Part shown: piece after piece, positions 6,974 to 63,783 of the stretch
Numbering within the stretch: position 1 is the stretch's first letter
Layout: each line of letters starts with the position of its first letter
DNA from: Eledone cirrhosa
Lineage: Eukaryota
Direction of reading: 5' to 3'
Length of the DNA: 64,000 nt
Assembly (NCBI GenBank): GCA_964016885.1
Contig: OZ024743.1
Span: 199,516,001 to 199,580,000, forward strand
Notes under the pieces: generated by a model
Databases searched by the model: none
Seen by the model: the letters and a program-made list of their open reading frames with translations, nothing else
What the model was told of the DNA's origin: nothing
Position numbers and translations under genes: made by a program

Positions 6974-7233
6974 GCTATGTGTTGAACGTCAAAATATAGG
7001 ATGGTTCATACAAAACTTATCGGAGGTTTTCTGAGAAGCCTTTTAATTATGAACGACCATTTCACTACCTCCTCTCCCTCGTAGTTCATTCAAGTCCTCA
7101 CTCACTCATCCAATCTTTTACTCTGCTCCCCTTCTTTCCTTGTCATTCTCGCTGTCCTTATATATAACCCCCTCTCTCTCTCTCTTTCTCTTCTCTCCTT
7201 CTTATTATCTCCTATACACAGACATATTTATAC

Positions 7234-7270
<37 letters not shown>

Positions 7271-7287
7271 CACACACACACACACAC

Positions 7288-7322
<35 letters not shown>

Positions 7323-8555
7323 TAAAGGCCTCCTTCAGTCACGAATGACTAATGGGATTTGCACCTGGAAAGTTTGCTTTCCAAGACAAAAGTCCGAGCA
7401 AGTCACCCATGCATACTAGTGTCCCCTCTGCATGTCACCAATGTCGCCCAAGAGAAAGGCAAAGGCCGATACAGCTTGGCACCAGTGACAATGAGTGAAT
7501 TGGAGCAAAGTGTCTTGCTTAAGAACACAACGTATCGCCCGTTCCAGGAATCGAACTCAACCATACGATTTTGAATTCGACGCTCTAACCTCTAAGCCAC
7601 ACATACACACACTGCACCATCCGATATCAACAAGCACCACTACAAGGAAAGAGAGCTAGAAAGGGAAAGAGTACTTAGGCGATGTAGGTGGGGCATGTGG
7701 TGAAGTAGATGTCGCTGCTGCATGTGATACAACAACAAGAGCAATAACAACAGCACTGCCACAAAATATGGGACTTACTAATCATTATGAAAATACTTGA
7801 AGAAAGTCAAAGAAAATATCTATTATCAACAGAAGCTTGTTTGTTTATGTGCGGATAGTGGTGGTGGCGATGGGGGGTGGTGGTGATGGTGATGCTAAAG
7901 AGCTGGTGGGGAAGTATTTCTAATGGTTATAATGGTCGTAGTGATGATGCTAATACTAAAAAAAGGTGGTGGGCTGTATTTTTAATGGTTGTGATCGTGC
8001 TGATATTAAAGGAAGTGGTGGCGGCGGTGGTGGTGTTGGTTTTTTTTTTTGGGGGGGGGGGGTCAGTGGTGAGTGATATTGGTGGTAATAGTGATGGTGG
8101 TGGTGGTTGTTGTGATGCTGATATAAAGGAGGTGGTGGTAACAATTAGTGTTGGTGGTGATGTTGATGCTAAGAGGAAATGCTGGTGATGGTGGGAGTGC
8201 AGCTACTGTTTAATATATACATTTTTTTTTCATTCTTTATTTATGTCTTCATAATTTCGTGGTATTTAAATCATATAATAGATAATACCTGGCGATTAAT
8301 TAAACGTCCCATACCTACCATCTTACCTGCCTATCTGTTTACCTATCTGCTCGTGTATCTACCTATTTCTCTTCTATGGTGAAAGTTCTATGTAGTCTAT
8401 CGACCTGTGAGAAATAGCAGCCAGATTCTCTTTATATCTTCTACCATCTGACAAAGAAAAGGGACATTGCATAATGTAGATCTGGATATGTGTAACTGTG
8501 GAAGTAATAAAAACAACGTTGCACATTCAATGAGTTTTGTAGTATGTGAATTGCA

Positions 8556-8600
<45 letters not shown>

Positions 8601-8649
8601 ATATATATATATATATATGTGTGTCTGTGTGTGTGTATATATATATGTC

Positions 8650-8712
<63 letters not shown>

Positions 8713-8878
8713 GTATGTGTGTGTGTATACATATGTGTGTGCGTGTGTGTTTCGGTAGTAATCCGCAAATGAAAGATCAAGGAGAACAGTGCTCGATCTG
8801 TTAAAAGCTTATTTGGTGTAAACAAAGTTTCATACACATAACATGTTTAGTGTATTTTGTTTACACTATATATATATA

Positions 8879-9073
8879 GGAAAAAGTATGACCCCGACGG
8901 CAGAGCTCAAGCCGTTTCGACGGTTATTTCTGGACTCCAGAAATAGCCGTCGAAACGGCTTGAGCTCTGCCGTCGGGGTCTAACATTTTCCTATTACCCC
9001 CTCTACTACCCTAAGTATTGAGTACTCTGGTGCGTTATGGTCCACCTGGTTCCTTACCACAACTCACTCGTTA
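8879..9073 (+). mobile_element. (TA)n-inserted mini element with 5' fold-back
   Basis: Near-perfect palindrome 8890-8980; homologues at 24045-24246 and 50774-50912. Confidence 0.8.
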
Positions 9074-9394
9074 TATATATATATACATAGATAGATAGAT
9101 ACACACACTGCATTTTGATAAATTTTATGCTCATATATAGCTAGCTACACATGTAGACACGCACAGACATACTGTAATATACACATGAGTGTTTGGGTGT
9201 GTATATGTATGCGAAGGTTTATTTATTTAATTATTCTGTATTATGTGTTAATGAAATCCTCAATATATATATATATGTATATATAATAAAGAGTAATGTC
9301 CCGACACTTTATAATCTAACCATACTCTATTACTCCAAGTATCGAGTTCTTTGTTGAGTAATGGTCTAACCAGTTTCAAATTGAAACCATCCTG

Positions 9395-9467
<73 letters not shown>

Positions 9468-9729
9468 CACACACACACACACATACACATACATACACAC
9501 ACAAATAGGGACGCACATGACAGAGACAATGACAGACAGTCCCATCTCATCTCCTCAGTCAACCTCTGGAAATATATATATATATATATAAAAATTTTGA
9601 GTATACCAACATCTCAGTATGCAGTTTGGAGCACTCGACGAAGTGCGCAGGTTGGTTTGGTTACTTCGGAGTAATGTAAAATAAAATAAAATAAATAAGT
9701 CAAATGTTTAAAATTTGGCTTCGTTTATT

Positions 9730-9784
9730 ACTGCTATATATATTTCGGTGACAGCCATCTTTGGCTGTGACCTCTTCAGGCAGT
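9730..9784 (-). ncRNA. Type I hammerhead ribozyme (left arm of inverted repeat)
   Basis: Reverse complement: ACTGC CTGAAGA GGTCACAGCCA-AAGA-TGGCTGTCACC GAAA TATAT ATA GCAGT. Confidence 0.85.
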
Positions 9785-10023
9785 CCGAATTCATTTGCCT
9801 AGCCTCAGAACGAATTTCTATAGACTTTTGACTGAGGAATGTTCTAACAACTGATCAATGGGAGGAGAAGAGGCCCTTTGACGCTGAAATTCGTTTGTTT
9901 AAATTCATATGATTCCAGTTCCTCAGTGAAATAACAACCCAACCAGGAACTGGGCATATCAGAGTATTGACAAAGTTAAACACCTCAACAACATGTGTAT
10001 TCGTCTCTACCACACTAATTCGG

Positions 10024-10078
10024 ACTGCCTGAAGAGGTCACAGCCAAAGATAGCTGTCACCGAAATATATATAGCAGT
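10024..10078 (+). ncRNA. Type I hammerhead ribozyme (right arm of inverted repeat)
   Basis: ACTGC CTGAAGA GGTCACAGC...GCTGTCACC GAAA TATAT ATA GCAGT; stem I ACTGC/GCAGT perfect. Confidence 0.85.
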
Positions 10079-10124
10079 AATAAACGAAGCCAAATTTTAA
10101 ACATTTGACTTATTTATTTTATTT

Positions 10125-10171
<47 letters not shown>

Positions 10172-10362
10172 AGTGGAAGCTTAGTAAAATCGAAGCTTTG
10201 GCTGTGGGCAAGCAAAGTTGACCTACAATAGGAATGAGTTAGCAAAGGACTCAATCAGGGTAGGTCCTTAACATCTTTTAACCTGTTAGTTCTTTCGTTA
10301 CTTTGGTATTGTGTGGTTGAGTTTTGCCTACCGCAATGTTCAATTTGTCAAGCTATTTAAAC

Positions 10363-10425
<63 letters not shown>

Positions 10426-10817
10426 AATGCAATGATATCATAATATCATTTTTAATCAGAAATATATAAATAAAAGTTCTTATAACCATAAATAAATGAA
10501 ATTCGTAAGTTTTTAATGATTCTATTTTACACATGTATGGTATCCATTATAACACATACACACACACATATATATACACACACACACACACACGTATATA
10601 TATATATGTATATATGTAAATATATATGTGTGTGTGTAAGCTCATATATATATATATATATATATCGGATAACCATATCCCACTTATATATGTCAGTTAG
10701 GCATCGCTTCTACAGTTGGATGCCCTTTATAATACCAACCTGTTTACAACGTGTACTGGGTGCGTTTTATGGTGGGGCCAGTGCTACTAATTGTCAGAGT
10801 GGGCTGGGTGCATTCTA

Positions 10818-10872
<55 letters not shown>

Positions 10873-10904
10873 AGATCAAAAGATGGTTAAAGGAGTTCAA
10901 TATA

Positions 10905-10971
10905 TTTTATTATGCGCATTTCAAAAACAAACATCATCAAACAATAATATTTGTGTTTTCATCAGATAAAA
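10905..10971 (-). ncRNA. Type I hammerhead ribozyme
   Basis: Reverse complement: TTTTAT CTGATGA AAAC ACAAATATTATT-GTTT-GATGATGTTTGT TTTT GAAA TGCGC ATA ATAAAA; 12-bp stem II with G-U pairs; palindromic ATGCGCAT. Confidence 0.85.
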
Positions 10972-12781
10972 CAGGAGAACATGATATGAAGGCTAAAAAA
11001 AAACACTTGTTGATAGTGCAGTTTTAAATCAACATCTGCATTGCTTTATTGTACTACAATAAAACTCACCTCCTACATATATATATATATATATATATAT
11101 AAGTGACTTCTTTGTTCGATCATCATACCAAAAGCTTAACATTATTTGTTTAAGCAGACAGTACCTGATTTAGGAGTTGCAGAAACGCCATATTGGATTT
11201 TACCGCCGTTTCCAGAGAGTCCGGGTATAATTTTCAATCATATTTTATTATTTGTTTGACCCGAATAGCTTGGTCGTTTCTATGGCTTTGCGGTTAATGG
11301 TTTAACCATCGTCTCAGTGTGTTTGGCCTTTTAACGTATGTTTATTGCTCTAGTTCACTCGTTTCTATGGAGTGCTTGCCACACATCTCGGAAGTTGTTT
11401 TTCGCTAATTTCCAATAGCCGAAATGCGATTCTCGCTAATTTATATTTATTTATATATATATATATATATTGTATTGTATTAATTAAATTAGACAATGTA
11501 ATTTACTTCTATTAATCACATTAAGCTCTTTACAGTTTTCTTTCTAATTACTATTAGTTAATTACCTCCCTAACTAATGTAACTGCTATTGGTAATTATC
11601 TTATTGTAAACTGTACAAGACTTATTCATTGCTTTATACCAATTATAATATATTTTACTAATTACTTCTTTGTAATGGGCGGTGCGTTGTGTTTTTTAGC
11701 AAGGATCTTCATTTCACGTTGCTTTTCATAAAAACACTCTCCTGTGAGTTAACCTCATAGAAGACCGACTAAAACTTTAGTTTGCTAGCTGTGGATTTCA
11801 TTTCATTTTATTTTTTCCCATTTCCGTTGCAATAATTTTTATGTTTTTAATTTTATATACAGTATTTCAACCCTTTTTACTTGGGTATATTTATTCATAT
11901 CTGTGTGTAAATTTCATTATATGAATCAAGGTATTAACGCCAACGGATTAAGAACCATAATTCAGTATTAAGAAATCAACCTGCAAGTGATTGAGCATTC
12001 GAAGAACACTTATACTTCTAATGTAATTCTTGTAGAGTATTAAGAACGTTGGAAAGAATGCTTTACAGATTTCGTTTCGGGGTTCTGAGCTTAAATCCCG
12101 CTGAGGCCAACTTTGCTTTCATTCTTCTAGGGTCGATAAAATAAAGTTCCATTGAAAGACTAGAGTTAATGAAACTGTCTCCACACAAATTGCAGGACTT
12201 GAACCTTGATTAAAAATAATTAATTATGGCTCTACACCAAAACTTTTGCCAGATTTAACCAAATATTATTTTGCAATTATTTACCCCCCCCCCCCCCCCC
12301 CCCCCACACACACATATATGACGGACTTTTGCACAGTTTCATCGACCAAGTTTAATTCACAAGACATTGGTCAACGCGAGGTTTTATATAAAATAATACA
12401 CTTACCACTGCATAGCACTGAAATAAAAACAATTCCTGCTCCTATACTTCTGTATTTTCTTTCAGAGAAACCTACTAAAATCCATCTTTAACATATAATA
12501 ATGATGAATTTCTTAATAATAATAATAATAATAGATCCCCTGAAAACTGCTAAACATTGTAAGAAAACTCTTCACTCTGTCACATTGTTTCCTCCTTCAA
12601 CAAAGCTGAAGTTTTGCTCAGAAATTCAAAGTTTATTTTTTATTTTTAGTTTATATTATCTATCATCCACCAACTCCATGCTTTCTAAGACCATTCCATG
12701 ATTGATCATTTGTTACAAAGAATTATTGTCCAATATGATTGATGGATGCTACATTCGCTCTGATCTTTGCGATTTTGCGTA

Positions 12782-12828
<47 letters not shown>

Positions 12829-13379
12829 TCTTATCTCTCTCTCCAAATGTGTGTAGAAGAAAAAATAAACAAGACACTAAATCATATAATGGCGTTATAT
12901 ATGGGAATGGATCCCTTTCGTTTTCGACGATGAGTGTTTCAATTGTTAGATTAGTAGAAGTATAACAGCCTGTTTGTGAAATCAACTTGCAAGTGGCCAA
13001 GCATTCTAACGTAATTCTTATAAAAACTCAACGTGGCATATTGTGTGACATGCTTGGTTCTTTTAATTTATAGGTACAGTCCACCCAACAGGCTTCCAAA
13101 CAGTTTCTGCACGCATATATTTAACTCACAAGGTATGGGTCGCCCTTAGGCAATGGTAAATGACTCTTGTCCAAATTGTCACACAATGGTATTGAACCCG
13201 GAAACTTGTGTTTACAAAAGAAACTTCTAAACCATTTGGCCATGCTGTGCCAATGCCAATGGTGATATTATTTCACTAAACATTTATTTATTTGGCAAGG
13301 TAGGCTGGTGAAACTGTATATAATACAGTAAAATAATTATAAATATATTTGTTTTTTATGGTGATTACTGCATTAACAA

Positions 13380-13595
13380 TGGTTTCTGATTTAGGCACAA
13401 GGCCAGCAATTCTGGGGAGGGAAAAGTTGATTAAATCGACCTGAGTGTGTGACTGGTATTTTATTTTATCGACACCGTAAGGATAAATAGCAAAGCTAAC
13501 CGCGGCGAGATTTGAACTCAGAACGTAAAAAGCCGTAACTCTATGCTACGAAGCAGGGTGACCGATGCTCTACTGATTCTGCTAATCTACTCCCC
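13380..13595 (-). mobile_element. Nin/Deu-domain SINE
   Basis: Same consensus. Confidence 0.8.
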
Positions 13596-14204
13596 TTAAT
13601 TACTGCATTAATACTAAAAATACTAATAAAACCATCGTCATTATCATTTAAAGCCCATTTCCATGTTGGCATGGGCTGGGTGGATAGTCACTGCCCGAAA
13701 GTAGGTGAGTTGGGGACACCACAGTTTATTGAAAATTAATTATTACTATTGTTACCAGTTTAAAATCAAAGAAAATCTATGAAATTGTTAGGCTTAGTTT
13801 TTTTTATGGGGTGGGGGTGAAGGCGGAAGTTGTTGCGTTTTTATTTTAAATTGAAATAATTCATCATCGTCACCATCATTATCATCATCGAAAAATCAAC
13901 CAAACGTATCGCAGCATTTCAACCATGCTAACATTACGCAGGAGGGGAAAAAATGACTGTTATCAGTTAATGATAACTATGATGGTGATGGTGATGGTGG
14001 TGGTGATGATGATGGTGGTGGTGGTGATTGTGGTGGCGATAACAATGATGTCGAGGGCAACTTCGAAAACTCGATCGATCGTTCATATTCAATGATGACT
14101 TTTATTGTTACCAACAGTAATGGTTAATGTTAGTAGCACTGTTGATAAGGATTCTACTAGTAGATGTAGTTAGAATGAGTTAGTCCTGATAACAGTAATA
14201 TTGA

Positions 14205-14710
14205 TTTCTAATTTAGGGTCATGGCCAACAATTTAGGTAGGAGTGTAGAACGTCTGTTAAATCAACCGCTGCTTGACTAGTATTTTATTTTATCGAACCC
14301 AGAAGATAAAATCGATTAAATCGACCCCAGTGCGTTACTGATGCTTTATTTATCGACCCCATAAGGATGAAAAACGAAGCTAACCTTGGCGGGATTTGAA
14401 CTCAGAACGTAAAGGACTGTAACCATATGCCACGAAGCGTGTTGTCCGACGTTCTACCAATACTGCCAATCCACCGCCCTCGGGAATTCTACCAATAATT
14501 TAAAAAATTATTTCTACTTTTGGCACACACGACGAGCAGTTTAAAGGTAGAACGGATGACGTCAATTAAATCATCCCCAGCGCGTTACTGGTATTTTATT
14601 TTATCGACCACGAAAGAACGAAAGGCATGGTTGATCCTGACGGGATTTGGAATGGCCCTTAACTAAAATGTCACAACACATTTTATCTAACGCTCTGACG
14701 ATTCTGCTGA
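14205..14710 (-). mobile_element. SINE cluster (2-3 copies)
   Basis: Same consensus. Confidence 0.8.
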
Positions 14711-15862
14711 AATATAATGATTTATTTGTGGTCGTAATGATTGCAACACATGGGCAGTAAACAGTATAATAGTAACGAAAATAATAACAGTAACAATAGC
14801 TACAGCTGGCAACAACAAAACGTTGTTGTTGCTAATGGCAACGTTTTTTTTTTGGGGGGGGGGGGGGGGGGGTAAAGTTTTTTCTTGATGGGATTAAAAA
14901 GTGATTGTAGATATGGTAATATGATAGTGGTTTTGGTGGATGTGGGTGTGTTGATTGTAGTAATGTTGCTAGTAGTGATATTGGTGGTGCTGGTGGGTAA
15001 CATGGTTGTTAGGTATAGGTTAGCTACATTATGGCTATGAATTTGATAGTGTGTGGCAGTGGGTTTGATGAGTAATGAAAAAGGTATGGAGGTTGAGTCG
15101 ATAATAATAATAATTACAAAACAACCCACACTAACGATAATAGCAAGATAGAAAGGGACCTGTAGTACATCCCACAAAAAAAAAAAAAAAAAATGAATAA
15201 ATCTGAATTTTTTTTAAAAGAGGTTTTCATTGGTGTTTTTTTTAAATGTTTATCTCTTCTTTCACCTTTCTAGTATCCCTTCTTTCCATCCTACCCCTCC
15301 TCCGCTATCAACACCACCACCACAATCAGACTCCATCTCCACGCCCTCACCTCGGACCCTAACCGGATGTGCTTCGCATCGCTCTACATGACGTATTACG
15401 TTTAATATGCAAATCAGCGAATATTTTGAAGCACGTAAAACCAAAAAGGTGTCAATGACCACCAGGCATTGTGATAATGAAGAAACTAATAAAAAGAATA
15501 TGAAATAAAACTTAAAACAAAAATAGAAAAAGAGGGAGAAGGCGGCGAAGGGCTTCTTCATTTTTATTTTATAAAGAGGGAGAGAGAGAGAGAAGGTGGG
15601 GAAAGAAATATTGTATCAGACTTTCAGAATATGTTATTATACTGTTTCATTGGTTCATTCCACCAAATATATATATTTATACACACATACACACACATAT
15701 ATATATATGTACATATACACATATATATATATATGTATATATATACACATATATATGTATATATATACACATATATATGTATATATATACACACATATAT
15801 GTATATATATACATACGTATAAATACATATATATATATATATATATGTTTATATATATATAT

Positions 15863-15909
<47 letters not shown>

Positions 15910-16487
15910 TATTTGTGTGTGTACGTATATGTACGTGTGTGTGTATGTGTGTGTGTGTTTTATAATTTGAGATCCCAGTCAGACTAAAGGTTATTCAATT
16001 CGTAGAGAAGTTGCAGACACTGCGCTATGTCCGTTCACCAATAACTACCATAACATATAGCTTGGGAATGGCCTTGTGGTTAGGATGTTGGATTCAAAAC
16101 CATAAGGCTGTGAGTTTGATTCACAGACAGTTTATGCGTTGAGGCATCATTTCACGGTGTTTTTCATGAGTGGACTGGGGGTTCCTTATCATTAAATCTT
16201 CCGAGAATACATTCTATGAGAAGCACCCACGGTAGGGACCAAATAACTCTACATAAGAGTGAGTTGTAAATTTCATATTAGCTAAACTATACCACTGATA
16301 TATATATAGTAATAATAATAAATTTGAAGACTAAAATCCAAAGAGGGCTCGATAAGGATAAATATATATCAGATATATAAGAACCGTAGAGCAAATATTT
16401 ATTAAAATAACAGATTAAAGTTTAAGCAAATTTCAGAAGATCCCGTTAAGGGTGAAAGCAGCTATTCTTTGCTTAAACTTTAATCTG

Positions 16488-16525
<38 letters not shown>

Positions 16526-16539
16526 TATAGTTTAGCTAG

Positions 16540-16620
<81 letters not shown>

Positions 16621-16791
16621 ATATAATATATGTATATGTACTGGTGGTATACTTTAGCTTATTTATATATATATATATTATATATATATATATATATATA
16701 ATATATATATATATAATATATATATAATATATATATATAATATATATATATAATATATATAATATATATATATATATAATATATATATATA

Positions 16792-16823
<32 letters not shown>

Positions 16824-17154
16824 ATATTATAATACATATATATATATATTCGGTTGTTTCCGTATGTGCATCTGTGTGTGTGCTGGTAAAGCAATTTGAT
16901 TGGTGGTATACATTCCTGCTTGTATTTTTGTTTGTTTTTAACTTCATCTCATTGACAAAAGCATTAAGACACGGTTGGATTGTATTCAGTCTGTTATGTC
17001 AAGCATTTCAGTTCCTAACCATAAACCACGTGACTTTACTTGATCCCAGTGTACACTCAACTATTATTGTCATTAACATCATCATCATCATCATCATCAT
17101 CACACTAATAACTATAGTGATGCCAATGTTGACGATATTAATGATTTTGAGAAT

Positions 17155-17782
17155 AATAATTGTTCCTACTTTAGGCACAAGGTCAAACATTTTGCGATAG
17201 GGGGGAAAAGTCGATTAAATCGACCCCAGTGCATTACTGGTACTTTATTTTATCGAGTCCGTAAAGATGAAAGGCAAAGCTAACTTCGGCGGGATTTGAA
17301 TTCAGAATGTAAAAGGACATAACTATGGCGCGATGCATGGTGTCCGATGCTCTACCGATACTGCCAATCCACCATAATAATGGTTTCTGATTTAGGCACA
17401 AGGCCAACAATTTTGGGAGTGTGTGTGGGGTCCATTAAATCGCCGCCAGTGCCTGACTACTACTTTATTTTATCGACCCCGTAAGGATGAAGGGTAAAGC
17501 CAACCTCGGCTGGATTTGAACTCAGATAATAAAGGATCCCGAATGCAAAGCATTTTATCTGACGTTCTAACTTACTCTGTCAACTCACAGCTCAATAATG
17601 ATGATGATGATATTAGTAATAATTGTTTCTACTTTTGGCACAAGGCCAGCAAATACCCAGTACATTACTGGTATTTTATTTTATCGACCCCATAAGGATG
17701 AAAGCCAAAGTTAACCTCCGCGGGATTTGAACTCAAACCATAAAGGGCCGTAAATCTATGCGTCAAAGCATGGCGTCCGACC
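17155..17782 (-). mobile_element. Three head-to-tail SINE copies
   Basis: Same consensus. Confidence 0.85.
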
Positions 17783-18025
17783 TATTAGTAATAATGGTTA
17801 TAATAGTGATTTCTAAGATAGACAAAAAGGCCACACATTTCGGTGGTGGGAGAACAGCCAATTAACATTGACGCCAGTATTGAAACTAATAGACGTTTCT
17901 TCGTCTTCTTGCAGCACACTGGTCTTTAGAATCTTTGTAAATATGACAGAAAAATGTCCTGTTTATTACTTTTGTTGTTGTTTGTTCGTTAGGTTTTCGT
18001 GTGTGTATGCGTGTTTGTAATGAAA

Positions 18026-18135
<110 letters not shown>

Positions 18136-19229
18136 TATATGCCATTGACTCAATAAGCTCAGCCTCTAAATAACTTTTATAACTTTATTTAAAACATAAA
18201 GTTGGCAATTAGCATACACCCCCACTTTGAATTATTGTAGCGTCTGTCTGTGTATTCTTTCTTTCTATCTTTCTTTCATTTGGCACTTAACTCTACTTAT
18301 CTAAAACTGAATTGTCTGATCAAACAACTATAAGTACTCTTGTTGTTGATAATAATAATAATAATGATGTCGATGATTTTGTTTTAATGCTTCTTGGTTC
18401 AGAATTTAAATCCGAGCCGAATTCATGTTTACCTTTTTATTAATGGGGGGGGGGGGGGGTTCTATGAAACAAGTACCAGTGGCATATTGCGGTCCACATC
18501 TTCGGCTATCCTTCTCTCTATCCAGCTCTATCCCCAAGTTTTTGGAGTTTTTTTTTTTACAATTGACTTTATTGATAATAACGATCTCCTTAAAATTAAT
18601 TATTCTGGTTGTTATTTACTTATTTACTTTCATATCGAATATATGTTCCTAGAGGAGGAACCTCTGTGTGGTTCCTTAATCTGTAGCCATAACATGCAAA
18701 TCACCCTAAAATTCCATCATATTTTTGTAAATGGAAGAAAGCATTTGTTAAGAGTGAGTGTGGGATATACTATGTCTGAAGACAAGACTAGATTGTTATA
18801 GTCAGAACAAACCTAATCTTAGGTTTACTCAACTAAGCAATTAAACAATCTCTATACAGTAGCTCATTCTGCTAGAAATAACAGTAAAATATCCCTTAAA
18901 ACAGGAAAGACACGTCTGAGATAAGACGAGAGAGTTTTAATTAGAGCATGCTTATTAATAGGTCTTCCTGAACAGGGTTGCTTAGGGGCTCACCAACCAG
19001 AGCCTCTGTATGACTCATAACAGCATAGATCTGTAGTTAGAAAGTTACTGTCCGAGGCACAAACTTAGGCAAGAGTTTTTTTATGATTTTCATGGCAGTC
19101 CAGCAGTTGTCTATGCATGCACGTCTTCACATTTCCAGCCCCTAATATGTTGTCTAAAGCAAAGGTAAGGGCCGATACAGAGTAGCCAAAAACAACAATC
19201 TATGTTATAATGTTATTATTAAACCAAGA

Positions 19230-19680
19230 AGGTTAGTTGAGCAGAATCAGGAGAGCGCCGGACAAAATGTTCTGCGGCATTTAGTTACGAATTTCCACCT
19301 TCTGAGTTCAAATCATGGGGAGTTCAACTTTAACGTTCACCCTTCCGAGGTCTATGAAATAAAGTTCCAGTCAAGTACTGGGGTCGATGTCATTGACTTT
19401 CGCCTACCCACAAAATTATTGACGTTGTGTCTAATGTAGAAATATTCGTATTAGGGGTTGGGGGAATTGACAGTATCGGTAGAGCGTCGAACAACATTCT
19501 GTATGGCATAGGGTTACTGACCTATACGATCTGAGTTCAAATCCTGCCGAGGTTAGCTTTGCCTTTCATCCTTACAGGGTCGATAAAATATAGTAGCAGT
19601 ATTGTACTTGGGTCGATTTAATCGATTACCCACCCCCCTCAAATTACTGACCTTGTGCCTTATGTAGAAATCATTATTTT
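19230..19680 (+). mobile_element. Two SINE copies just upstream of the exon
   Basis: Same consensus. Confidence 0.8.
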
Positions 19681-19735
19681 ATTAAACAAGCCAATCTAAC
19701 AGTTTCTTTTCTTCTTTTCTCTACTTTACAGGATT

Positions 19736-20290
19736 ATGTCTTCTAAACGCAAAAACACACCCACCAAACTCTATAAGGATAACATAATACTTGAGCGGTT
19801 ACATTCTGACACATCCGAATGTGATAACAGCAACTTAGATAGTGAAGGAGAAACTGAACTGAACTATTCTGCACGTTTTCTCTCCAAATCTGACAGTAGT
19901 GAAGATTTTCATGATTCCGACAGCGGTTCGGACAAGCCGCCAAACAAGAAGCAACGAATTCTTCAAAGTATAAGACACGACTCGGAATCCGAGCCAGAAA
20001 CTGATCTTCCACACAACATCACAACAAAACCCAACGCTGGGCTGCATCGAAAATCCATGGAAAGTGTATTGCAAAGACTCAGCTCCAAATCTCCTGGAGT
20101 TCAAAATTCTGACATTGAGCGAACCAGTCCGCTCGGAAGCGCTGACCATGAAGGAGGAGTGCTGGAGAATGTTAGCGCTTTACTCCGAGGAAAAGGGTCC
20201 ATACAAGATAAATCTAAGAAAATCGTTGACATGATTTCACAACTCCAAAAAATGAACGAAAGCTTGAAAAAACAAGGCGAAAATACCAGG
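19736..20290 (+). CDS. Coding exon (185 codons, phase-0 donor), probable N-terminal exon of a SoxD-group (Sox5/6/Sox102F-like) transcription factor
   Basis: Branch-like CTAAC (19696), polypyrimidine tract and CAG acceptor ending 19731; ATG at 19736; AGG|GTAAGC donor at 20291; complex non-repetitive peptide. MSSKRKxxPTKL, KSMESVLQRL and the heptad segment KKIVDMISQLQKMNESL match my recollection of invertebrate SoxD N-termini. No HMG box in the window, so identity is less certain than exon status. Confidence 0.75.
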
Positions 20291-20371
20291 GTAAGCATTT
20301 CCCCTTCATTTTATACTTCATATTATTTTCATTGTACTTTCGTAAACTGATAGTTCCATATACATTTTCTT

Positions 20372-20955
20372 CCGTGGATTGATGGAATCGGTGGATAGTC
20401 TGACAAAATACCTTACGGTTTTCGTTCCGGCTGTTTGCGTTCTAAGTTCAAACCTGCTTAGGTCAACTTTACCTCTCTTCTTCACGGGGGTCGCTAAAAT
20501 AAAGTACCAGTCGAACACTGGGTCCATTTTAATGGACTAAACCTTCCACCTCTAAAATTGCTGGCATTGTGTCAAAATTAGAACGCATTATCTTGGTGGA
20601 TTGGCAGTATCGGTAGAGGGTCGGACACCATGCTTTGAAGTTCAAATCCCGCCGAGGTTAACTTTGCTTTTCATCGTTACGTGGTCGATAAAATAAACTA
20701 CCAGTAATGCACTGGAATAATTGCTGGTCTTGTGCCAAAAGTATAAACAATTATCTTTAATTACAACTCCCCTATTTTTTTCACTTAAGCGGTGAAATGG
20801 CCAAGTCGTTAGAGCGTAGGACGATATGCTTTACGTTCTGAGTTCAAATCCTGTCATGATCAAATTTACTTTTCATTCTTCCGGGTTCAATAAAATTGGC
20901 TTTCCCCTCCCCCACTCAAATTGCTAGCCTTGTGCCAATGCTAGAAAGAATTATT
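20372..20955 (+). mobile_element. Three SINE copies just downstream of the exon
   Basis: Same consensus, partly deleted. Confidence 0.8.
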
Positions 20956-22319
20956 TTATTTTTCAATGTCGTAAGCATCATAAATGAAGACAAACCTATC
21001 ATATCTCCCCTGCTTTTAGCATTTCGACAAAGTGTTGGTGTGTTTTTTTTTCTTTATTTAATTATTTATTGGATCCCAGGGAAAATGTATGGGGAAAAAA
21101 ATTTTCGAAAACAAAAACAAAATCGAAATTTCCTGGATCTGGACTGATTTGAAAGTAGTATCGATTTGTGTAGTTGGCTGGTTGGCTGGCTGGTTAGCTT
21201 GACAAGATCCATTCATTGTATTGAGGCCTTCATAAATGAGAACAAAGTGAGAAAATAGTGGTGGTGGCGGTGGTGGTGGTGGTAGCGGTGGTTATTAGAG
21301 ATGCAATAGTGATAATGGTGGTGGTGATGTTGATGATAGTTATGATAACATTGTGGTAATGTTGGTCGTTACGGTGAAGGTGATGGTGCTGGTGCTGTTG
21401 GTGGTTACAGATGCAATAGTAATGGTGGTCATAATGTTGATGATAGTGATGATGGTTATGATAATAGTGAAGTAGTGTTAGCCGTTACGATGGTGGTGGT
21501 GATGGTAATAGTGATGTTGATAATGGTGATCGTAGTGGTAGTAGTGGTGGTAGAGATATTGGTGGTCTTGGGATGGGGATTATAGTAAGGATGGTAATGG
21601 TAGCGGGGTATGAGCCAATGAAATTATGTAACAATGAACCGCTATTGAATAGAATCGGGTAGAAAATAAAAATACCTGTCATCCGTCACCACCACCCTGT
21701 TCATTCCCTTTTCTCTCCCCCCTCTCCCTTTTCCTCTTCAGTTCTATAATAGATTGGAGAAAATATAAGGAACTATGCAGAAATAATAGAAGTATGGAAA
21801 GCATGGTAGTAGTAGTAGTAGTAGTAGTAGTAGCAGCAGAGGTAGTGGCGGCGGTATAATTTGTAGTGATGACGGTGGTGGTTTTTTTGTAGCATTGGTA
21901 GCAGTGATAATAGTAGTAGTGGTAACGGTGGTGGATTCTGGTAGTAGTAGTTATAGTTTTTCATCAGTGATAATGTTTTCTAATCTAGACAAGTCCTTTA
22001 ATGTTGTGGGTAGGGGTAACTCGGTCGAATAAATCAACTCCTGGACGTGACCAGTACTTTGTCTCAGTACTTTACTCCGAAAATATGAAAAACGGTGATA
22101 TTTCAAATCATAGCCTAAACAGCCTTTTGAATTTAAGACAAGACCAGCCCCCCCCCCCTTTTTTTTTTTTAAAGTCTTCTTCTTCGTCCATTTAATTCTG
22201 GGAGGGTCGTAGGGGCAGAGTCCTCAAACACTCCTTGCAGCGTGTCTTGTCAGAAGCAACAGTCTCAAACTGATCCGGCCGGAGACCCCAAGTGAAACCA
22301 GCCACACTCATAGATTTTA

Positions 22320-23012
22320 TCTAACCATCATGCTCGGGATAAAGTCGATAAATTAAATCTAATCCCAGCTCTTGACAGGTATTTTATTTTATCGACCACA
22401 AAAGTGTGATAGGCAAAGTTGTCTACGGCGGGATTTAAACATGTCTGATGCTCTACCGATTCTGCCAATCCACTACCTTTAACTAAGGAATAGTTGCGGT
22501 ATCAGTAGCAAGAGTTGTCTTTGCTGTTGTTATTATTGTCAAATCCCGCCGAGGTTAACTTTGCCTTTCATCCTTACGGGGTCGATAAAATAAAGTACCA
22601 GTAATGCACTGAGGTAATTGCTGTCCTTGTGCCAAAAGTAGAAACAATTATTGTCTAACCTCAGGTCAACTCTGATCGAACAAACCTAATATCAAAGTTA
22701 GTAGCGGATTAAGAGGAGGGGTGGGGTGGGGCGACAAGGCTTTGACCAGAGGTTCAAACTAATTAAATATATATATTTTTTTCATACCATAAACAATGAT
22801 TTCTAGTATCGACACTAGGCCAGTACTTTGTGGGGAGGGAAAGTCGATTAAATCAACCCCAGTACGTTACTGGTACTTTATTTTATCGACCCTGTAAGGA
22901 TGAAAGGCAAAGTTAACCTCGGCCGGATTTGAACTTAGACTGTAAAGGGCCGTAACTCTATGCTGGAAAGCATGGTGTCCGACTCTCTACCGATACTGTC
23001 AATCCACCGCCC
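22320..23012. mobile_element. SINE cluster in mixed orientation (-,+,-)
   Basis: 22320-22480(-), 22538-22652(+), 22795-23012(-). Confidence 0.8.
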
Positions 23013-47314: not shown

Positions 47315-48380
47315 TGGATGTGTGTGTATGTCTCGTGGATGTGTCAGTGTGTTTGTATGTGTTTATGTATGTCCTATTGATGTGTCTGTGTGTTTGTATG
47401 TGTTTATTATGTCTCGTGGATGTGTCTGTGTGTTTGTATGTGTTTATGTATGTCTCGTAGATGTGTCTGTATGTGTGTTTGTATGTCCCGTAGATGTGTC
47501 TGTGTGTTTGTATGTGTTTATGTATGTCCCGTAGATGTGTCTGTGTGTTTGTATGTGTTTATGTATGTCTCGTAGATGTGTCTGTGTGTTTGTATGTGTT
47601 TATGTATGTCCCGTAGATGTGTCTGTGTGTTTGTATGTGTTTATGTATGTCCCGTAGATGTGTCTGTGTGTTTGTGTGTGTTTATGTATGTCCCGTAGAT
47701 GTGTCTGTGTGTTTGTATGTGTTTATGTATGTCTCTTGGATGTGTCTGTGTGTTTGTATGTGTTTATGTATGTCCCGTAGATGTGTCTGTGTGTTTGTAT
47801 GTGTTTATGTATGTCTCTTGGATGTGTCTGTGTGTTTGTATGTGTTTATGTATGTCCCGTAGATGTGTCTGTGTGTTTGTATGTGTTTATGTATGTCCCG
47901 TTGATGTGTCTGTGTGTTTGTATGTGTTTATGTATGTCTCGTAGATGTGTCTGTGTGTTTGTATGTGTTTATGTATGTCTCGTAGATGTGTCTGTATGTG
48001 TGTTTGTATGTCCCGTAGATGTGTCTGTGTGTTTGTATGTGTTTATGTATGTCTCGTAGATGTGTCTGTGTGTTTGTATGTGTTTATGTATGTCTCTTGG
48101 ATGTGTCTGTGTGTTTGTATGTGTTTATGTATGTCTCGTAGATGTGTCTGTGTGTTTGTATGTGTTTATGTATGTCCCGTAGATGTGTCTGTGTGTTTGT
48201 ATGTGTTTATGTATGTCTCGTGGATGTGTCTGTGTGTTTGTATGTCTCGTGGATGTGTCTGTGTGTGTGTATGTGTTTATGTATGTCTCGTGGATGTGTC
48301 TGTGTGTGTGTATGTGTTTATGTATGTCTCGTGGATGTGTGTGTGTGTGTGTGTGTGTTTATGTATGTCTCGTGGATGTG
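47315..48380. repeat. 41-bp minisatellite, about 26 units
   Basis: Unit GTAGATGTGTCTGTGTGTTTGTATGTGTTTATGTATGTCCC. Confidence 0.95.
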
Positions 48381-48656
48381 TTTATAAATGTTTAGGGGTC
48401 TCATGGATATGTTTGTGTGTTTTGTATGAGTTTATAAATGTGTTGTGTTGTTTAACCTCAGGTCAACTTTATCGCATTGGAGTAAAAAATAGTGAAAAAT
48501 GATAAGGGACTACAATGTGGACACTCAATTTGCTAGATATAACAACCAAAGTGATCACAAATCCCACCTTAACTTTAAAAAAATAGAAGTGCCCCAGCAT
48601 GACCTCAGCCGGATGACTGTAGCATACATGTAAAAGAGTGAAAGGGTAAATTGAAA

Positions 48657-60476: not shown

Positions 60477-60539
60477 TAAATGTAAGTATGCATGTATACG
60501 TACATACATATATGTATACAGACGTACAGTAGCATGCAC

Positions 60540-60574
<35 letters not shown>

Positions 60575-60984
60575 TATACATATGCATACAGGTACACATA
60601 CATATATGCACGTATCAGTTTAGCGGCGCTAACGTCGCTTTGTTCGTTTGTAAACAAACTGAACAGCCTGAATTTATGCCATACCGATTTAACTCACTCA
60701 ATATGCAAATTAGGCTGCTCAGCCGTTAATTTTCATAAGGAAAGTATATACTTTCGAACGTTCAACTATCTGGCAGATGGGTAAACGGTGCTGATGATAG
60801 CTAACAAGCTTGAAACTAGTACATCGTTCCTGTGTCAGTGTTGAACAAAAAGGTGACGTGGTTGCCTTAACACCGTATGGCATAAATTCAGGCTGTTCAG
60901 TTTGTTTACAAACGAACAAAGCGACGTTAGCGCCGCTAAACTGATACGTGCATATATGTATGTGTACCTGTATGCATATGTATA

Positions 60985-61019
<35 letters not shown>

Positions 61020-61082
61020 GTGCATGCTACTGTACGTCTGTATACATATATGTATGTACGTATACATGCATACTTACATTTA
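60477..61082. mobile_element. Fold-back insertion (arms 60477-60684/60875-61082) with central hammerhead
   Basis: About 208-bp inverted repeat including an internal TA run. Confidence 0.85.
60784..60828 (+). ncRNA. Type I hammerhead ribozyme in the spacer of a long inverted repeat
   Basis: AACGGTG CTGATGA T AGCT-AACA-AGCT T GAAA CTA GTA CATCGTT; palindromic ACTAGT. Confidence 0.85.
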
Positions 61083-61158
61083 AGTAAGTGCCATACTAAG
61101 AGTGAGAAATGAAATTTCGTTTTCATTTTGTTTCAATTTATATATATGTATATATATG

Positions 61159-61223
<65 letters not shown>

Positions 61224-61224
61224 G

Positions 61225-61260
<36 letters not shown>

Positions 61261-61286
61261 TATATCTGTATATATATATATATCTG

Positions 61287-61321
<35 letters not shown>

Positions 61322-61392
61322 CTGTATATATATATATATCTGTATATATATATATATATATATATCTGTATATATATATATATGTATATATA

Positions 61393-61775
61393 TATAGCGA
61401 TTAGGTCTTCAAAATGTTTATTATAAACATACAGAATATTTTCGAATATTCTGTGTCTATATTCACATATATATCGCTATTTCAGAGCATTTATTCCAAT
61501 TTCTAATTTCTGCCGGACCGGCAACCGCTCTTTCAAACCAGTTCCTGTACACAGCTAAGTATTCTATAAGTCTCTAGCTGTGTCATTCTCGATGAAAGCA
61601 CTGGATATGTAGTCCTGATGAATTCTAACAAGAATGAAACGCGTAGACTTACTTCCCTTGCTTTTATCGAGAATCTAATTGTAATACGTGACGTATTCTA
61701 TTCTATAGCGATTAGGTCTTCAAAATGTTTATTATAAACATACAGAATATTTTCGAATATTCCGTGTCTATATTC

Positions 61776-61785
<10 letters not shown>
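61393..61785 (+). mobile_element. Retrozyme-like unit: about 82-bp direct repeats, 311-bp period, one hammerhead
   Basis: 61393-61474 equals 61704-61785 (one mismatch seen); TA arrays on both sides. Confidence 0.8.
61611..61649 (+). ncRNA. Type I hammerhead ribozyme between direct repeats
   Basis: AGTC CTGATGA ATTCT-AACA-AGAAT GAAA CGC GTA GACT; palindromic ACGCGT; distal 16-bp helix 61585-61600/61659-61674. Confidence 0.92.
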
Positions 61786-63236
<1,451 letters not shown>

Positions 63237-63605
63237 TAACCAAAGATTAGTATGGTTCGTTGATTACTCAACGAATACAGTTTTACAATAGATTAGAAGC
63301 AGTCAACAATAAAATTTTCCTGGAATTTTTTAATATTATTCGAAATGTTAACAAATGAAAAATATTCGCATATTCAAAATATATACTTTATTATATATAA
63401 TCCAAAGGTACTGTGTTGTTTTTTCAGTACGTCCTCATCAGACAAAATATATGATTTGATATATGACATACCGCTACGGTCTTGATTTATATTTTGTCTG
63501 ATGAGGACGTACTGAAAAACAACACAATAAGTTTGAAATATATATAATAAAGTATATATTTTGATTATGCGAATATTTTTCATTTGTTAACATTTCGAAT
63601 AATAT
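63237..63605. mobile_element. Fold-back hammerhead insertion (arms 63333-63451/63488-63605)
   Basis: About 118-bp inverted repeat with a few mismatches; TA flanks. Confidence 0.82.
63488..63556 (+). ncRNA. Type I hammerhead ribozyme (right arm of inverted repeat; decayed copy on - strand at about 63380-63451)
   Basis: TATATTTTGT CTGATGA GGAC...GTTT GAAA TATAT ATA ATAAAGTATA; the - copy keeps GTACTG/CAGTAC in stem II but has GGAT for GAAA. Confidence 0.75.
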
Positions 63606-63783
63606 ATATATCTATATATATATACATACGTGAGCCTACATATTACATATATGAGGAGCTTCCGATTACAGAGCAGGTTCGACCATTAATAGATAGTTCC
63701 TCCAGCTGATCGACAGTGAAACATATGTAATTAAATATGTATATGATGCAACACTTATTCTTTGTTCCCTTATATATTAATAC

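What the first reader, a model, noticed from the sequence alone, without database searches (positions are those of the whole stretch)
61393..61785. 311-nt retrozyme-like unit: about 1.26 copies of a hammerhead monomer
Seen: 82-bp direct repeats 311 bp apart enclose the cleanest hammerhead in the window (61611-61649), whose stem I continues as a 16-bp distal helix; no coding capacity; TA arrays on both sides. Known: non-LTR retrozymes are short non-coding hammerhead repeats that yield circular RNAs. Inference: the terminal redundancy is what an RT reading more than once around a 311-nt circular RNA would leave. A tandem partial pseudo-LTR of a Penelope-like element is the alternative.
Basis: partly seen in the sequence, partly recalled or inferred. 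Interest (0 to 1): 0.85.

Follow-up and report, generated by a model that had tools for sequence, protein, structure and literature searches.

The report
Stub of two-armed hammerhead retrozyme family
This 393-base stretch is a short, one-armed copy of a very young non-coding repeat with a predicted self-cutting RNA motif, and its many sister copies sit as back-to-back arrays with the end marks of Penelope-type jumping genes, which likely copied them, mostly from a small RNA circle that has not yet been seen.

Summary
Observation confirmed: 81/82-identical repeats 311 bp apart, a type I hammerhead (cut 61645/6), a 16-bp distal helix, TA flanks. It is one copy of a family with 18,015 hammerhead cores in this genome. 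Of 136 insertions read, 117 are head-to-head pairs of tandem arrays. All 115 with both ends visible have one 'short' end and one end about 35 nt longer, the Penelope-like (PLE) tail. Inner junctions fall all round the unit. This copy is the one-armed, short-end type (12 of 136); with one hammerhead it cannot release a unit RNA itself. Insertions are nearly homogeneous yet differ from each other (34 haplotypes in 105), favouring a single-unit (circular) template. Against that, two insertions show mirrored variants that need a multimer template. Fixed variants are A>G-biased (p=0.02), possibly RNA editing. No RNA run and no partner PLE were found. Retrozymes and their PLE link are in print; the two-armed footprint was not found in the papers searched. 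This scan reported the same family and footprint earlier, on other stretches of this genome and in other genomes.

The parts
61139..61396 (.). Left (TA)n microsatellite: target DNA at the 5' junction; the unit's TATA (u308-311, 61393-61396) is shared with it (inferred microhomology join)
   Evidence: 14 of 17 one-armed sister copies checked also have TATATA within 30 nt upstream
61393..61474 (+). First 82-bp repeat (u308-u78): end of the cDNA after passing the start point
61397..61707 (+). One full 311-nt unit (u1-u311), 35% G+C, non-coding; haplotype shared by 5 of 105 sampled insertions (57G, 198G, 226A, 252C)
61458..61474 (+). Short-end (S) start site, u68-78, in a small predicted stem-loop with an AC-containing loop; internal copy
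   Evidence: resembles the AC-rich stem-loop start site of the anole PLE (PMC11167929)
61467..61500 (+). PLE-type tail segment u71-u104; the long (T) ends of sister insertions stop at about u104 (92 of 120 ends)
61585..61674 (+). Extended stem I with the 16-bp distal helix (61585-61600/61659-61674) enclosing the hammerhead
61611..61649 (+). Type I hammerhead; predicted cut 61645/61646; palindromic two-pair stem III, predicted to need a second hammerhead (dimer)
61704..61785 (+). Second 82-bp repeat ending at the S site: the 3' end of the element, where reverse transcription is inferred to have been primed; carries a private T>C at 61763
61778..63238 (.). Right (TA)n microsatellite, 1.46 kb: target at the primed end

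Best explanation
This is a one-armed, 1.26-unit insertion of a very young non-coding hammerhead retrozyme family, likely written into a TA microsatellite by a Penelope-like element's reverse transcriptase, most often from a predicted 310-311-nt circular RNA. Steps: (1, inferred) tandem arrays elsewhere are transcribed, paired hammerheads cut them to unit length and a host ligase closes them. (2, inferred) A PLE endonuclease nicks both strands of (TA)n, and each 3' end primes cDNA at one of two fixed sites on the RNA, u68-78 and u104. (3, shown in DNA) The usual product is two tandem arrays head to head, one ending at each site, of 0.2-45 units, joined at an arbitrary point with 0-5 nt overlap. 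(4, shown/inferred) Here only the short-site cDNA is present; it ran 393 nt and was joined to the TA tract through TATA. With one hammerhead this copy is a dead end. A minority of events used a multimeric transcript instead of a monomer circle.
For: Family: 18,015 cores; 1,146 exact window-type 37-mers; 1,207 tail-end matches, a few counted more than once. Architecture: of 136 insertions, 115 of 115 two-armed ones with both ends seen are short+long, with 0 short/short and 0 long/long; 12 one-armed short, 6 one-armed long, 1 other, 2 cut by the stretch end. The end offset of 26-36 nt matches the 30-40-bp tail at one end plus inverted 5'-truncated copy of PLEs (PMC8557442 passages) and the two RT start sites that bound the tail in vitro (PMC11167929). 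Coding PLEs of this genome also end in TA tracts at two distances after their hammerhead, about 76 and 142 nt in the family with intact 775-aa frames. Permutation: 168 inner junctions fill all ten 31-nt bins (12-24 each); none of 156 refined junctions is exactly at the cut. Single-unit bottleneck: 34 haplotypes among 105 insertions of 3 or more units, 20 seen once. Private changes are fixed in every unit of both arms (2-nt deletion in 20 of 20 units of L061; two substitutions in 15 of 15 of L077). 137 of 995 units differ from their own insertion's commonest unit, yet only 3 of 261 in-register arm positions are mirrored, against about 36 if present-day arrays were copied in register as linear multimers. 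Ribozyme: among the fixed variants none hits the 12 conserved core bases, the free N7 position takes three states, and stem I changes keep pairing. Stem III is palindromic in 1,284 of 1,296 hammerheads of all families in the fetched DNA.
Against: L100 reads X,X,Y from the outer end in both arms (three linked differences), and L282 has the same variant in the outermost unit of both arms. A monomer circle cannot give either; they need a multimer template. L070 (long arm AAAAGG, short arm all G at u215) is ambiguous. The mirror expectation of 36 assumes source arrays as variable as today's and in-register priming, so the share of multimer templates could be well above the roughly 10% it implies. 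Some arrays show local DNA duplication (7-unit and 27-unit repeats of variants in L061 and L083). No PLE sharing the unit's sequence was found in 118 PLE-centred stretches. Zero core hits among about 35 variant sites is not significant by itself. In PMC11167929 uncut RNA was the dominant substrate in vitro, and in the 2026 preprint 8 of 9 Xenopus dimers did not cleave. Most loci come from one contig (C1) and were picked by an end motif.
Confidence: 0.65

Rival explanations
1. Same PLE machinery, but the template is normally an uncut or partly cut linear multimer transcribed from an existing array; both primers start in its last unit, and circles are by-products or absent.
For: Mirrored patterns in L100 and L282. 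The minimal stem III predicts weak cleavage. For the anole PLE, unprocessed RNA was the main substrate and hammerhead mutants still inserted (PMC11167929). 7 of 78 short-arm junctions lie at u242-253 vs 0 of 78 long-arm ones (post hoc, about 3 expected).
Against: Only 3 of 261 paired positions are mirrored although 13.8% of units are variant. Linear copying cannot lengthen arrays, so it does not easily explain private changes fixed in 15-20 units on both arms or 34 homogeneous haplotypes.
Confidence: 0.23
2. The template is the linear, self-cut monomer, and the RT jumps repeatedly from its 5' end back to a 3' end, giving tandem units without covalent closure.
For: It gives the same single-unit bottleneck and homogeneous arrays. 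Template switches evidently occur (chimeric L100).
Against: No junction lies exactly at the cut among 156, and the variant lists show no run of indels at u249/250, whereas jumps would be expected to leave run-offs and scars (own knowledge of non-LTR RT jumping).
Confidence: 0.07
3. A short PLE pseudo-LTR stub was inserted and then expanded locally as satellite DNA by unequal crossing-over; this copy is a partial local duplication.
For: Local duplications are visible in L061 and L083. The 2026 preprint discusses this route.
Against: Units at unlinked loci on many contigs are 100% identical. Both inverted arms carry the same haplotype in 56 of 66 insertions. Ends are fixed while inner junctions are permuted. 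No parent coding element with this sequence was found.
Confidence: 0.05

Closest known systems
Metazoan non-LTR retrozymes (Cervera and de la Pena 2020, PMC7229834; passages and Discussion read)
   Same: Non-coding tandem units of 150-450 bp, one type I hammerhead per unit, low G+C; dimer-dependent hammerheads as in axolotl; PLE or LINE RT on a circle proposed as the route.
   Different: The paper's main text has no occurrence of 'inverted' or 'orientation'. Here 117 of 136 insertions are head-to-head array pairs with one short and one tailed end. Circles and cleavage were shown there and are untested here.
[quoted passage not shown]
   Same: Retrozymes as non-autonomous PLE derivatives; monomers described as dead-end offspring.
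   Different: Its evidence is co-occurrence and pLTR homology in vertebrates. 'Tail' is absent and 'inverted' appears only in a reference title. Here the evidence is the insertion footprint, and pLTR homology to a coding PLE was not found.
EN+ Penelope-like elements, their tail and inverted copy (PMC8557442 passages; PMC11167929 main text), including non-autonomous Chlamys such as MRC1
   Same: 30-40-bp tail at one end only, inverted 5'-truncated copy, (TA)n targets, two RT start sites downstream of a hammerhead, both strands nicked and extended; MRC1-type elements form multicopy head-to-tail insertions.
   Different: No ORF here. Both arms are multi-unit arrays of one 310-nt unit with permuted junctions. 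Chlamys/Naiad elements are described as lacking canonical hammerheads.
L1 twin priming (recalled, no call)
   Same: Two primers from one staggered break give an internal inversion joined by microhomology.
   Different: In L1 the two arms copy different parts of one linear RNA; here each arm repeats the whole unit many times and starts at a fixed internal site.

Membership tests
Non-LTR retrozyme | Type I hammerhead in each unit | tested here: met
   Motif and fold; 18,015 intact cores genome-wide; below Rfam's gathering score
Non-LTR retrozyme | Tandem repeats of 150-450 bp, dimers to multimers | tested here: met
   308-311-nt units, arms up to 45 units. Met by the family; the window copy has only 1.26 units
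Non-LTR retrozyme | At least two consecutive hammerhead units at the locus ('active' criterion of the 2026 preprint) | tested here: not met
   The window copy has one hammerhead; most sister insertions meet it
Non-LTR retrozyme | Non-coding, G+C under 50% | tested here: met
   No ATG ORF of 40 aa or more; 109 of 311 bases G+C
Non-LTR retrozyme | Target-site duplication longer than 4 bp when present | tested here: inconclusive
   Both flanks are (TA)n, so a duplication cannot be read
Non-LTR retrozyme | Self-cleavage in vitro | not testable with these tools
   Bench assay needed
Non-LTR retrozyme | Expressed as linear and circular RNA | not testable with these tools
   No RNA holder listed
Autonomous EN+ Penelope-like element | ORF with RT and GIY-YIG endonuclease | tested here: not met
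   None in the unit or joined to any of 136 insertions
PLE-mobilised sequence | 30-40-nt tail at one end only | tested here: met
   115 of 115 two-armed insertions are short+long; offset 26-36 nt
PLE-mobilised sequence | Inverted 5'-truncated copy at the 5' end | tested here: met
   117 of 136 insertions; absent from the window copy
PLE-mobilised sequence | Insertion into (TA)n | tested here: met
   the end patterns required TA, but the 16 loci from the DNA search did not and show it too
PLE-mobilised sequence | Sequence homology to the pLTR of a coding PLE in the same genome | tested here: inconclusive
   None in 118 PLE-centred stretches from a handful of families; each search scored only 150 of 7,000-23,000 candidates

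The most novel reading that the evidence does not exclude
The family is a fossil record of double rolling-circle reverse transcription. A PLE enzyme primes at both nicks of one break, at two fixed sites on one 310-nt ribozyme circle, and each cDNA runs round it up to dozens of times. A-to-I edits made on the circle are written into every unit of the new insertion, so RNA editing drives the evolution of the element (A>G fixed at 10 sites vs T>C at 3; the same UAG site changed on 5 backgrounds; one insertion appears to catch the change mid-synthesis).
Probability: 0.4. Interest if true: 0.75.

Novelty: new variant of a known kind. Interest (0 to 1): 0.52.

Why it matters
How animal retrozymes get back into the genome, and how Penelope-like elements make their tail-and-inversion structures, are both described as unresolved in the papers read (PMC7229834 Discussion; PMC8557442 passages; 2026 preprint). 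A young family with well over a thousand insertions, two fixed start sites and per-insertion haplotypes lets circle and linear templates be told apart from genome sequence, and gives exact substrates for an in vitro test. A natural RT that writes multi-copy DNA from a small RNA circle into a chosen microsatellite would also be of technical interest. The window copy itself is an ordinary stub.

Tried and rejected
RNA evidence: no RNA holder listed. Runs X4, X5 and X6 each hold one 340-nt contig (310+30; a go-back joint is listed for X4 and X6) that looks circular, but they also hold an abundant host repeat at a depth ratio like run X1. They fit trace host DNA and show nothing about circles. Partner search: a PLE family with 830-aa frames, GIY-YIG hits and a family with 775-aa frames share no pLTR sequence with the unit; the hits were nested retrozyme copies (L153, L186, L239, L252). 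PF26215 is not in the library, and Pfam found nothing in the two L079 frames. Run-off at the hammerhead cut: an apparent pile-up at u253 was an artefact of a subfamily indel; after refinement no junction is at u250. Telomerase-like addition of the flanking repeats, templated by the element: no C-over-G bias next to short ends (23 vs 24 of 103). Fold-back origin of the second arm: rejected, because the two inner junction positions are mostly unrelated. The repeat finder was swamped by microsatellites. Literature: 'twin priming'+'Penelope'+'hammerhead' gave 0 papers; searches listed no paper on two-armed or cephalopod retrozymes; one search listed none on edited retrozyme copies (listings only). 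Subscription papers and bioRxiv supplements were not visible. Rows dropped: L001-L030 (overlapping short loci), one segmental duplicate in L068, family-B hits; L068 and L101 were left out; insertions under 3 units were left out of the haplotype and spectrum counts.

Full report
OBSERVATION. The description is accurate. Repeats at 61393-61474 and 61704-61785 are 81 of 82 identical and 311 bp apart. The hammerhead core, the cut at 61645/61646 and the 16-bp distal helix are there and fold better than all shuffles. Rfam gives only a sub-threshold HH9 match. No ORF of 40 aa was found, and both flanks are TA arrays. I number the unit u1 = 61397; the cut is u249/250. The host is a 3.0-Gb, microsatellite-rich animal genome; that it is a cephalopod is my inference and was not tested.

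FAMILY. The unit is not a local duplication. A DNA search returned 276 matches, the 150 listed all 100% identical, on many contigs. Pattern counts give 1,146 exact window-type hammerheads, 18,015 cores of the family (about 5.6 Mb) and 1,207 long-end matches. I fetched 135 stretches: 16 from the DNA search, the rest from the contig-1 places listed for the long-end and short-end patterns. They hold 136 insertions.

ARCHITECTURE. 117 of 136 are two tandem arrays head to head, with 3' ends pointing outward into (TA)n. In all 115 with both ends visible, one arm ends at the short site (u68-78) and the other at the long site (mostly u104; 92 of 120 long ends). There are no short/short or long/long pairs, although loci were picked by either end. 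The other 19 are one-armed: 12 short, 6 long (one beside an assembly gap) and 1 complex. The window copy is of the one-armed short type; 14 of 17 one-armed copies checked have TA sequence directly upstream, like the TATA join here. Arms reach 14 kb; medians are 1.46 kb for long-end and 0.96 kb for short-end arms (n = 88). Inner junctions are spread over the whole unit (168 junctions, 12-24 per tenth), none of 156 refined ones is exactly at the cut, and 51 of 78 joins overlap by 0-5 nt.

WHO MOVES IT. A 30-40-bp tail at one end, an inverted 5'-truncated copy and microsatellite targets are described features of EN+ Penelope-like elements (PMC8557442 passages). In vitro the tail lies between two RT start sites downstream of the hammerhead, and both target strands are nicked and extended (PMC11167929). 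The short site here lies in a small AC-loop hairpin. Coding PLE families exist in this genome, some with intact 775- and 830-aa frames, and two of them end at two distances after their own hammerheads. None of 118 PLE-centred stretches shares sequence with the unit except through nested retrozyme copies, so the partner is unidentified. PLE mobilisation is inferred from the footprint (my odds about 0.9).

CIRCLE OR MULTIMER. For a single-unit template: 105 insertions of 3 or more units fall into 34 haplotypes, 20 seen once; both arms agree in 56 of 66; private changes fill whole insertions (L061 20 of 20 units, L077 15 of 15); and only 3 of 261 in-register arm positions share a minor variant although 137 of 995 units are variant. 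Against: L100 reads X,X,Y from the outer end in both arms, then Y for the rest of the long arm, and L282 has one variant in the outermost unit of both arms. Both need a multimeric template with both primers starting in the same unit. L061 and L083 show local duplication. I conclude that single-unit templates, most simply circles, dominate and multimers are used sometimes; the proportion cannot be fixed because source arrays were younger when copied. The 82-bp redundancy of the window copy fits either.

RIBOZYME. Fixed variants spare the 12 core bases, vary at N7 and loop II, and keep stem I paired; the sparing alone is not significant. Stem III is a short palindrome here and in 1,284 of 1,296 hammerheads from all families in the fetched DNA (1,202 of them this family, five palindromes in all with 10 or more copies). 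This points to dimeric cleavage as shown for axolotl retrozymes (PMC7229834 passages). The window copy has one hammerhead and one cut site, so it cannot release a unit.

EDITING TRACE. Relative to the family's commonest letter, variants fixed in whole insertions are A>G at 10 sites and T>C at 3, whereas minor variants are A>G 11 and T>C 20 (Fisher p = 0.02, one uncorrected test). A215G, in a UAG context in stem I, is fixed in 8 insertions on 5 backgrounds and occurs beside four different core variants (849 units); u57, u198 and u270 also have a 5' U in helices. This fits A-to-I editing of the template (ADAR preferences and high cephalopod editing are recalled, not from a call). Selection for pairing (A-U to G-U) or template-switch recombination could give the same pattern; C>T vs G>A (2 vs 3) shows no parallel bias. 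My odds are about even.

RNA. No RNA run holds the unit; three circular-looking contigs are explained by trace host DNA. Cleavage, circles and expression are untested.

COMPARISON AND VERDICT. The family meets the sequence criteria of metazoan non-LTR retrozymes (PMC7229834) and works like a non-autonomous PLE, a link proposed in 2020 and argued from homology in the 2026 preprint. The strict two-armed short/long footprint, and the use of arm-by-arm variants to type the template, were not found in searches or in term searches of those two papers; subscription papers and preprint supplements were not visible. Earlier notes of this scan describe a 310-nt family with the same footprint in this genome, similar families in other genomes, and editing scars in sister families. 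These are unchecked AI notes; I had reached the architecture (note) before reading them. New variant of a known kind; interest 0.52; the window copy itself is a dead-end stub.

Noticed in passing
window 60480-61138: Two-armed inverted insertion of another hammerhead family (core at 60791; about 487-nt units in L044). One arm ends at about 60480 and the other runs about 57 nt further to 61138; the studied element sits in its right TA flank.
   Followed up: partly
window 63240-63620: Short inverted element with a hammerhead at 63498 and unequal ends, the same short/long pattern.
   Followed up: no
window 9674-10134: 118-bp inverted arms, 98% identical, each with a hammerhead (9779 -, 10029 +); further hammerheads at 10965 (-) and 59365.
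   Followed up: no
L052 700-1290, L086 3318-3801, L109 5217-6020: Sister family (about 321-nt unit, 70-80% identical over the end region) with the same two-armed form; its hammerhead core reads U3/A8 in place of C3/G8, with a long palindromic stem III.
   Followed up: partly
L186 2420-2870, L113 9088-9465: Third related family sharing the motif around u1-30 and the tail but with a different hammerhead; the shared part is a candidate RT-recognition element.
   Followed up: partly
L090 399-4975: 466-nt hammerhead unit, also as head-to-head arrays (6 + 4 cores).
   Followed up: no
L245-L250: Young PLE family with many intact 775-aa RT + GIY-YIG frames that begin just after an in-frame TGA following a long coding-like stretch (possible readthrough or intron); U3/A8 hammerhead about 1.05 kb after the stop; ends 76 and 142 nt after the cut.
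   Followed up: partly
L070 576-4594: u215 reads A,A,A,A,G,G inward along the long arm and G throughout the short arm: a template switch, an edit during synthesis, or a chimeric multimer.
   Followed up: partly
window 47325-48381: 41-bp tandem repeat, 26.5 copies, 90% matches.
   Followed up: no
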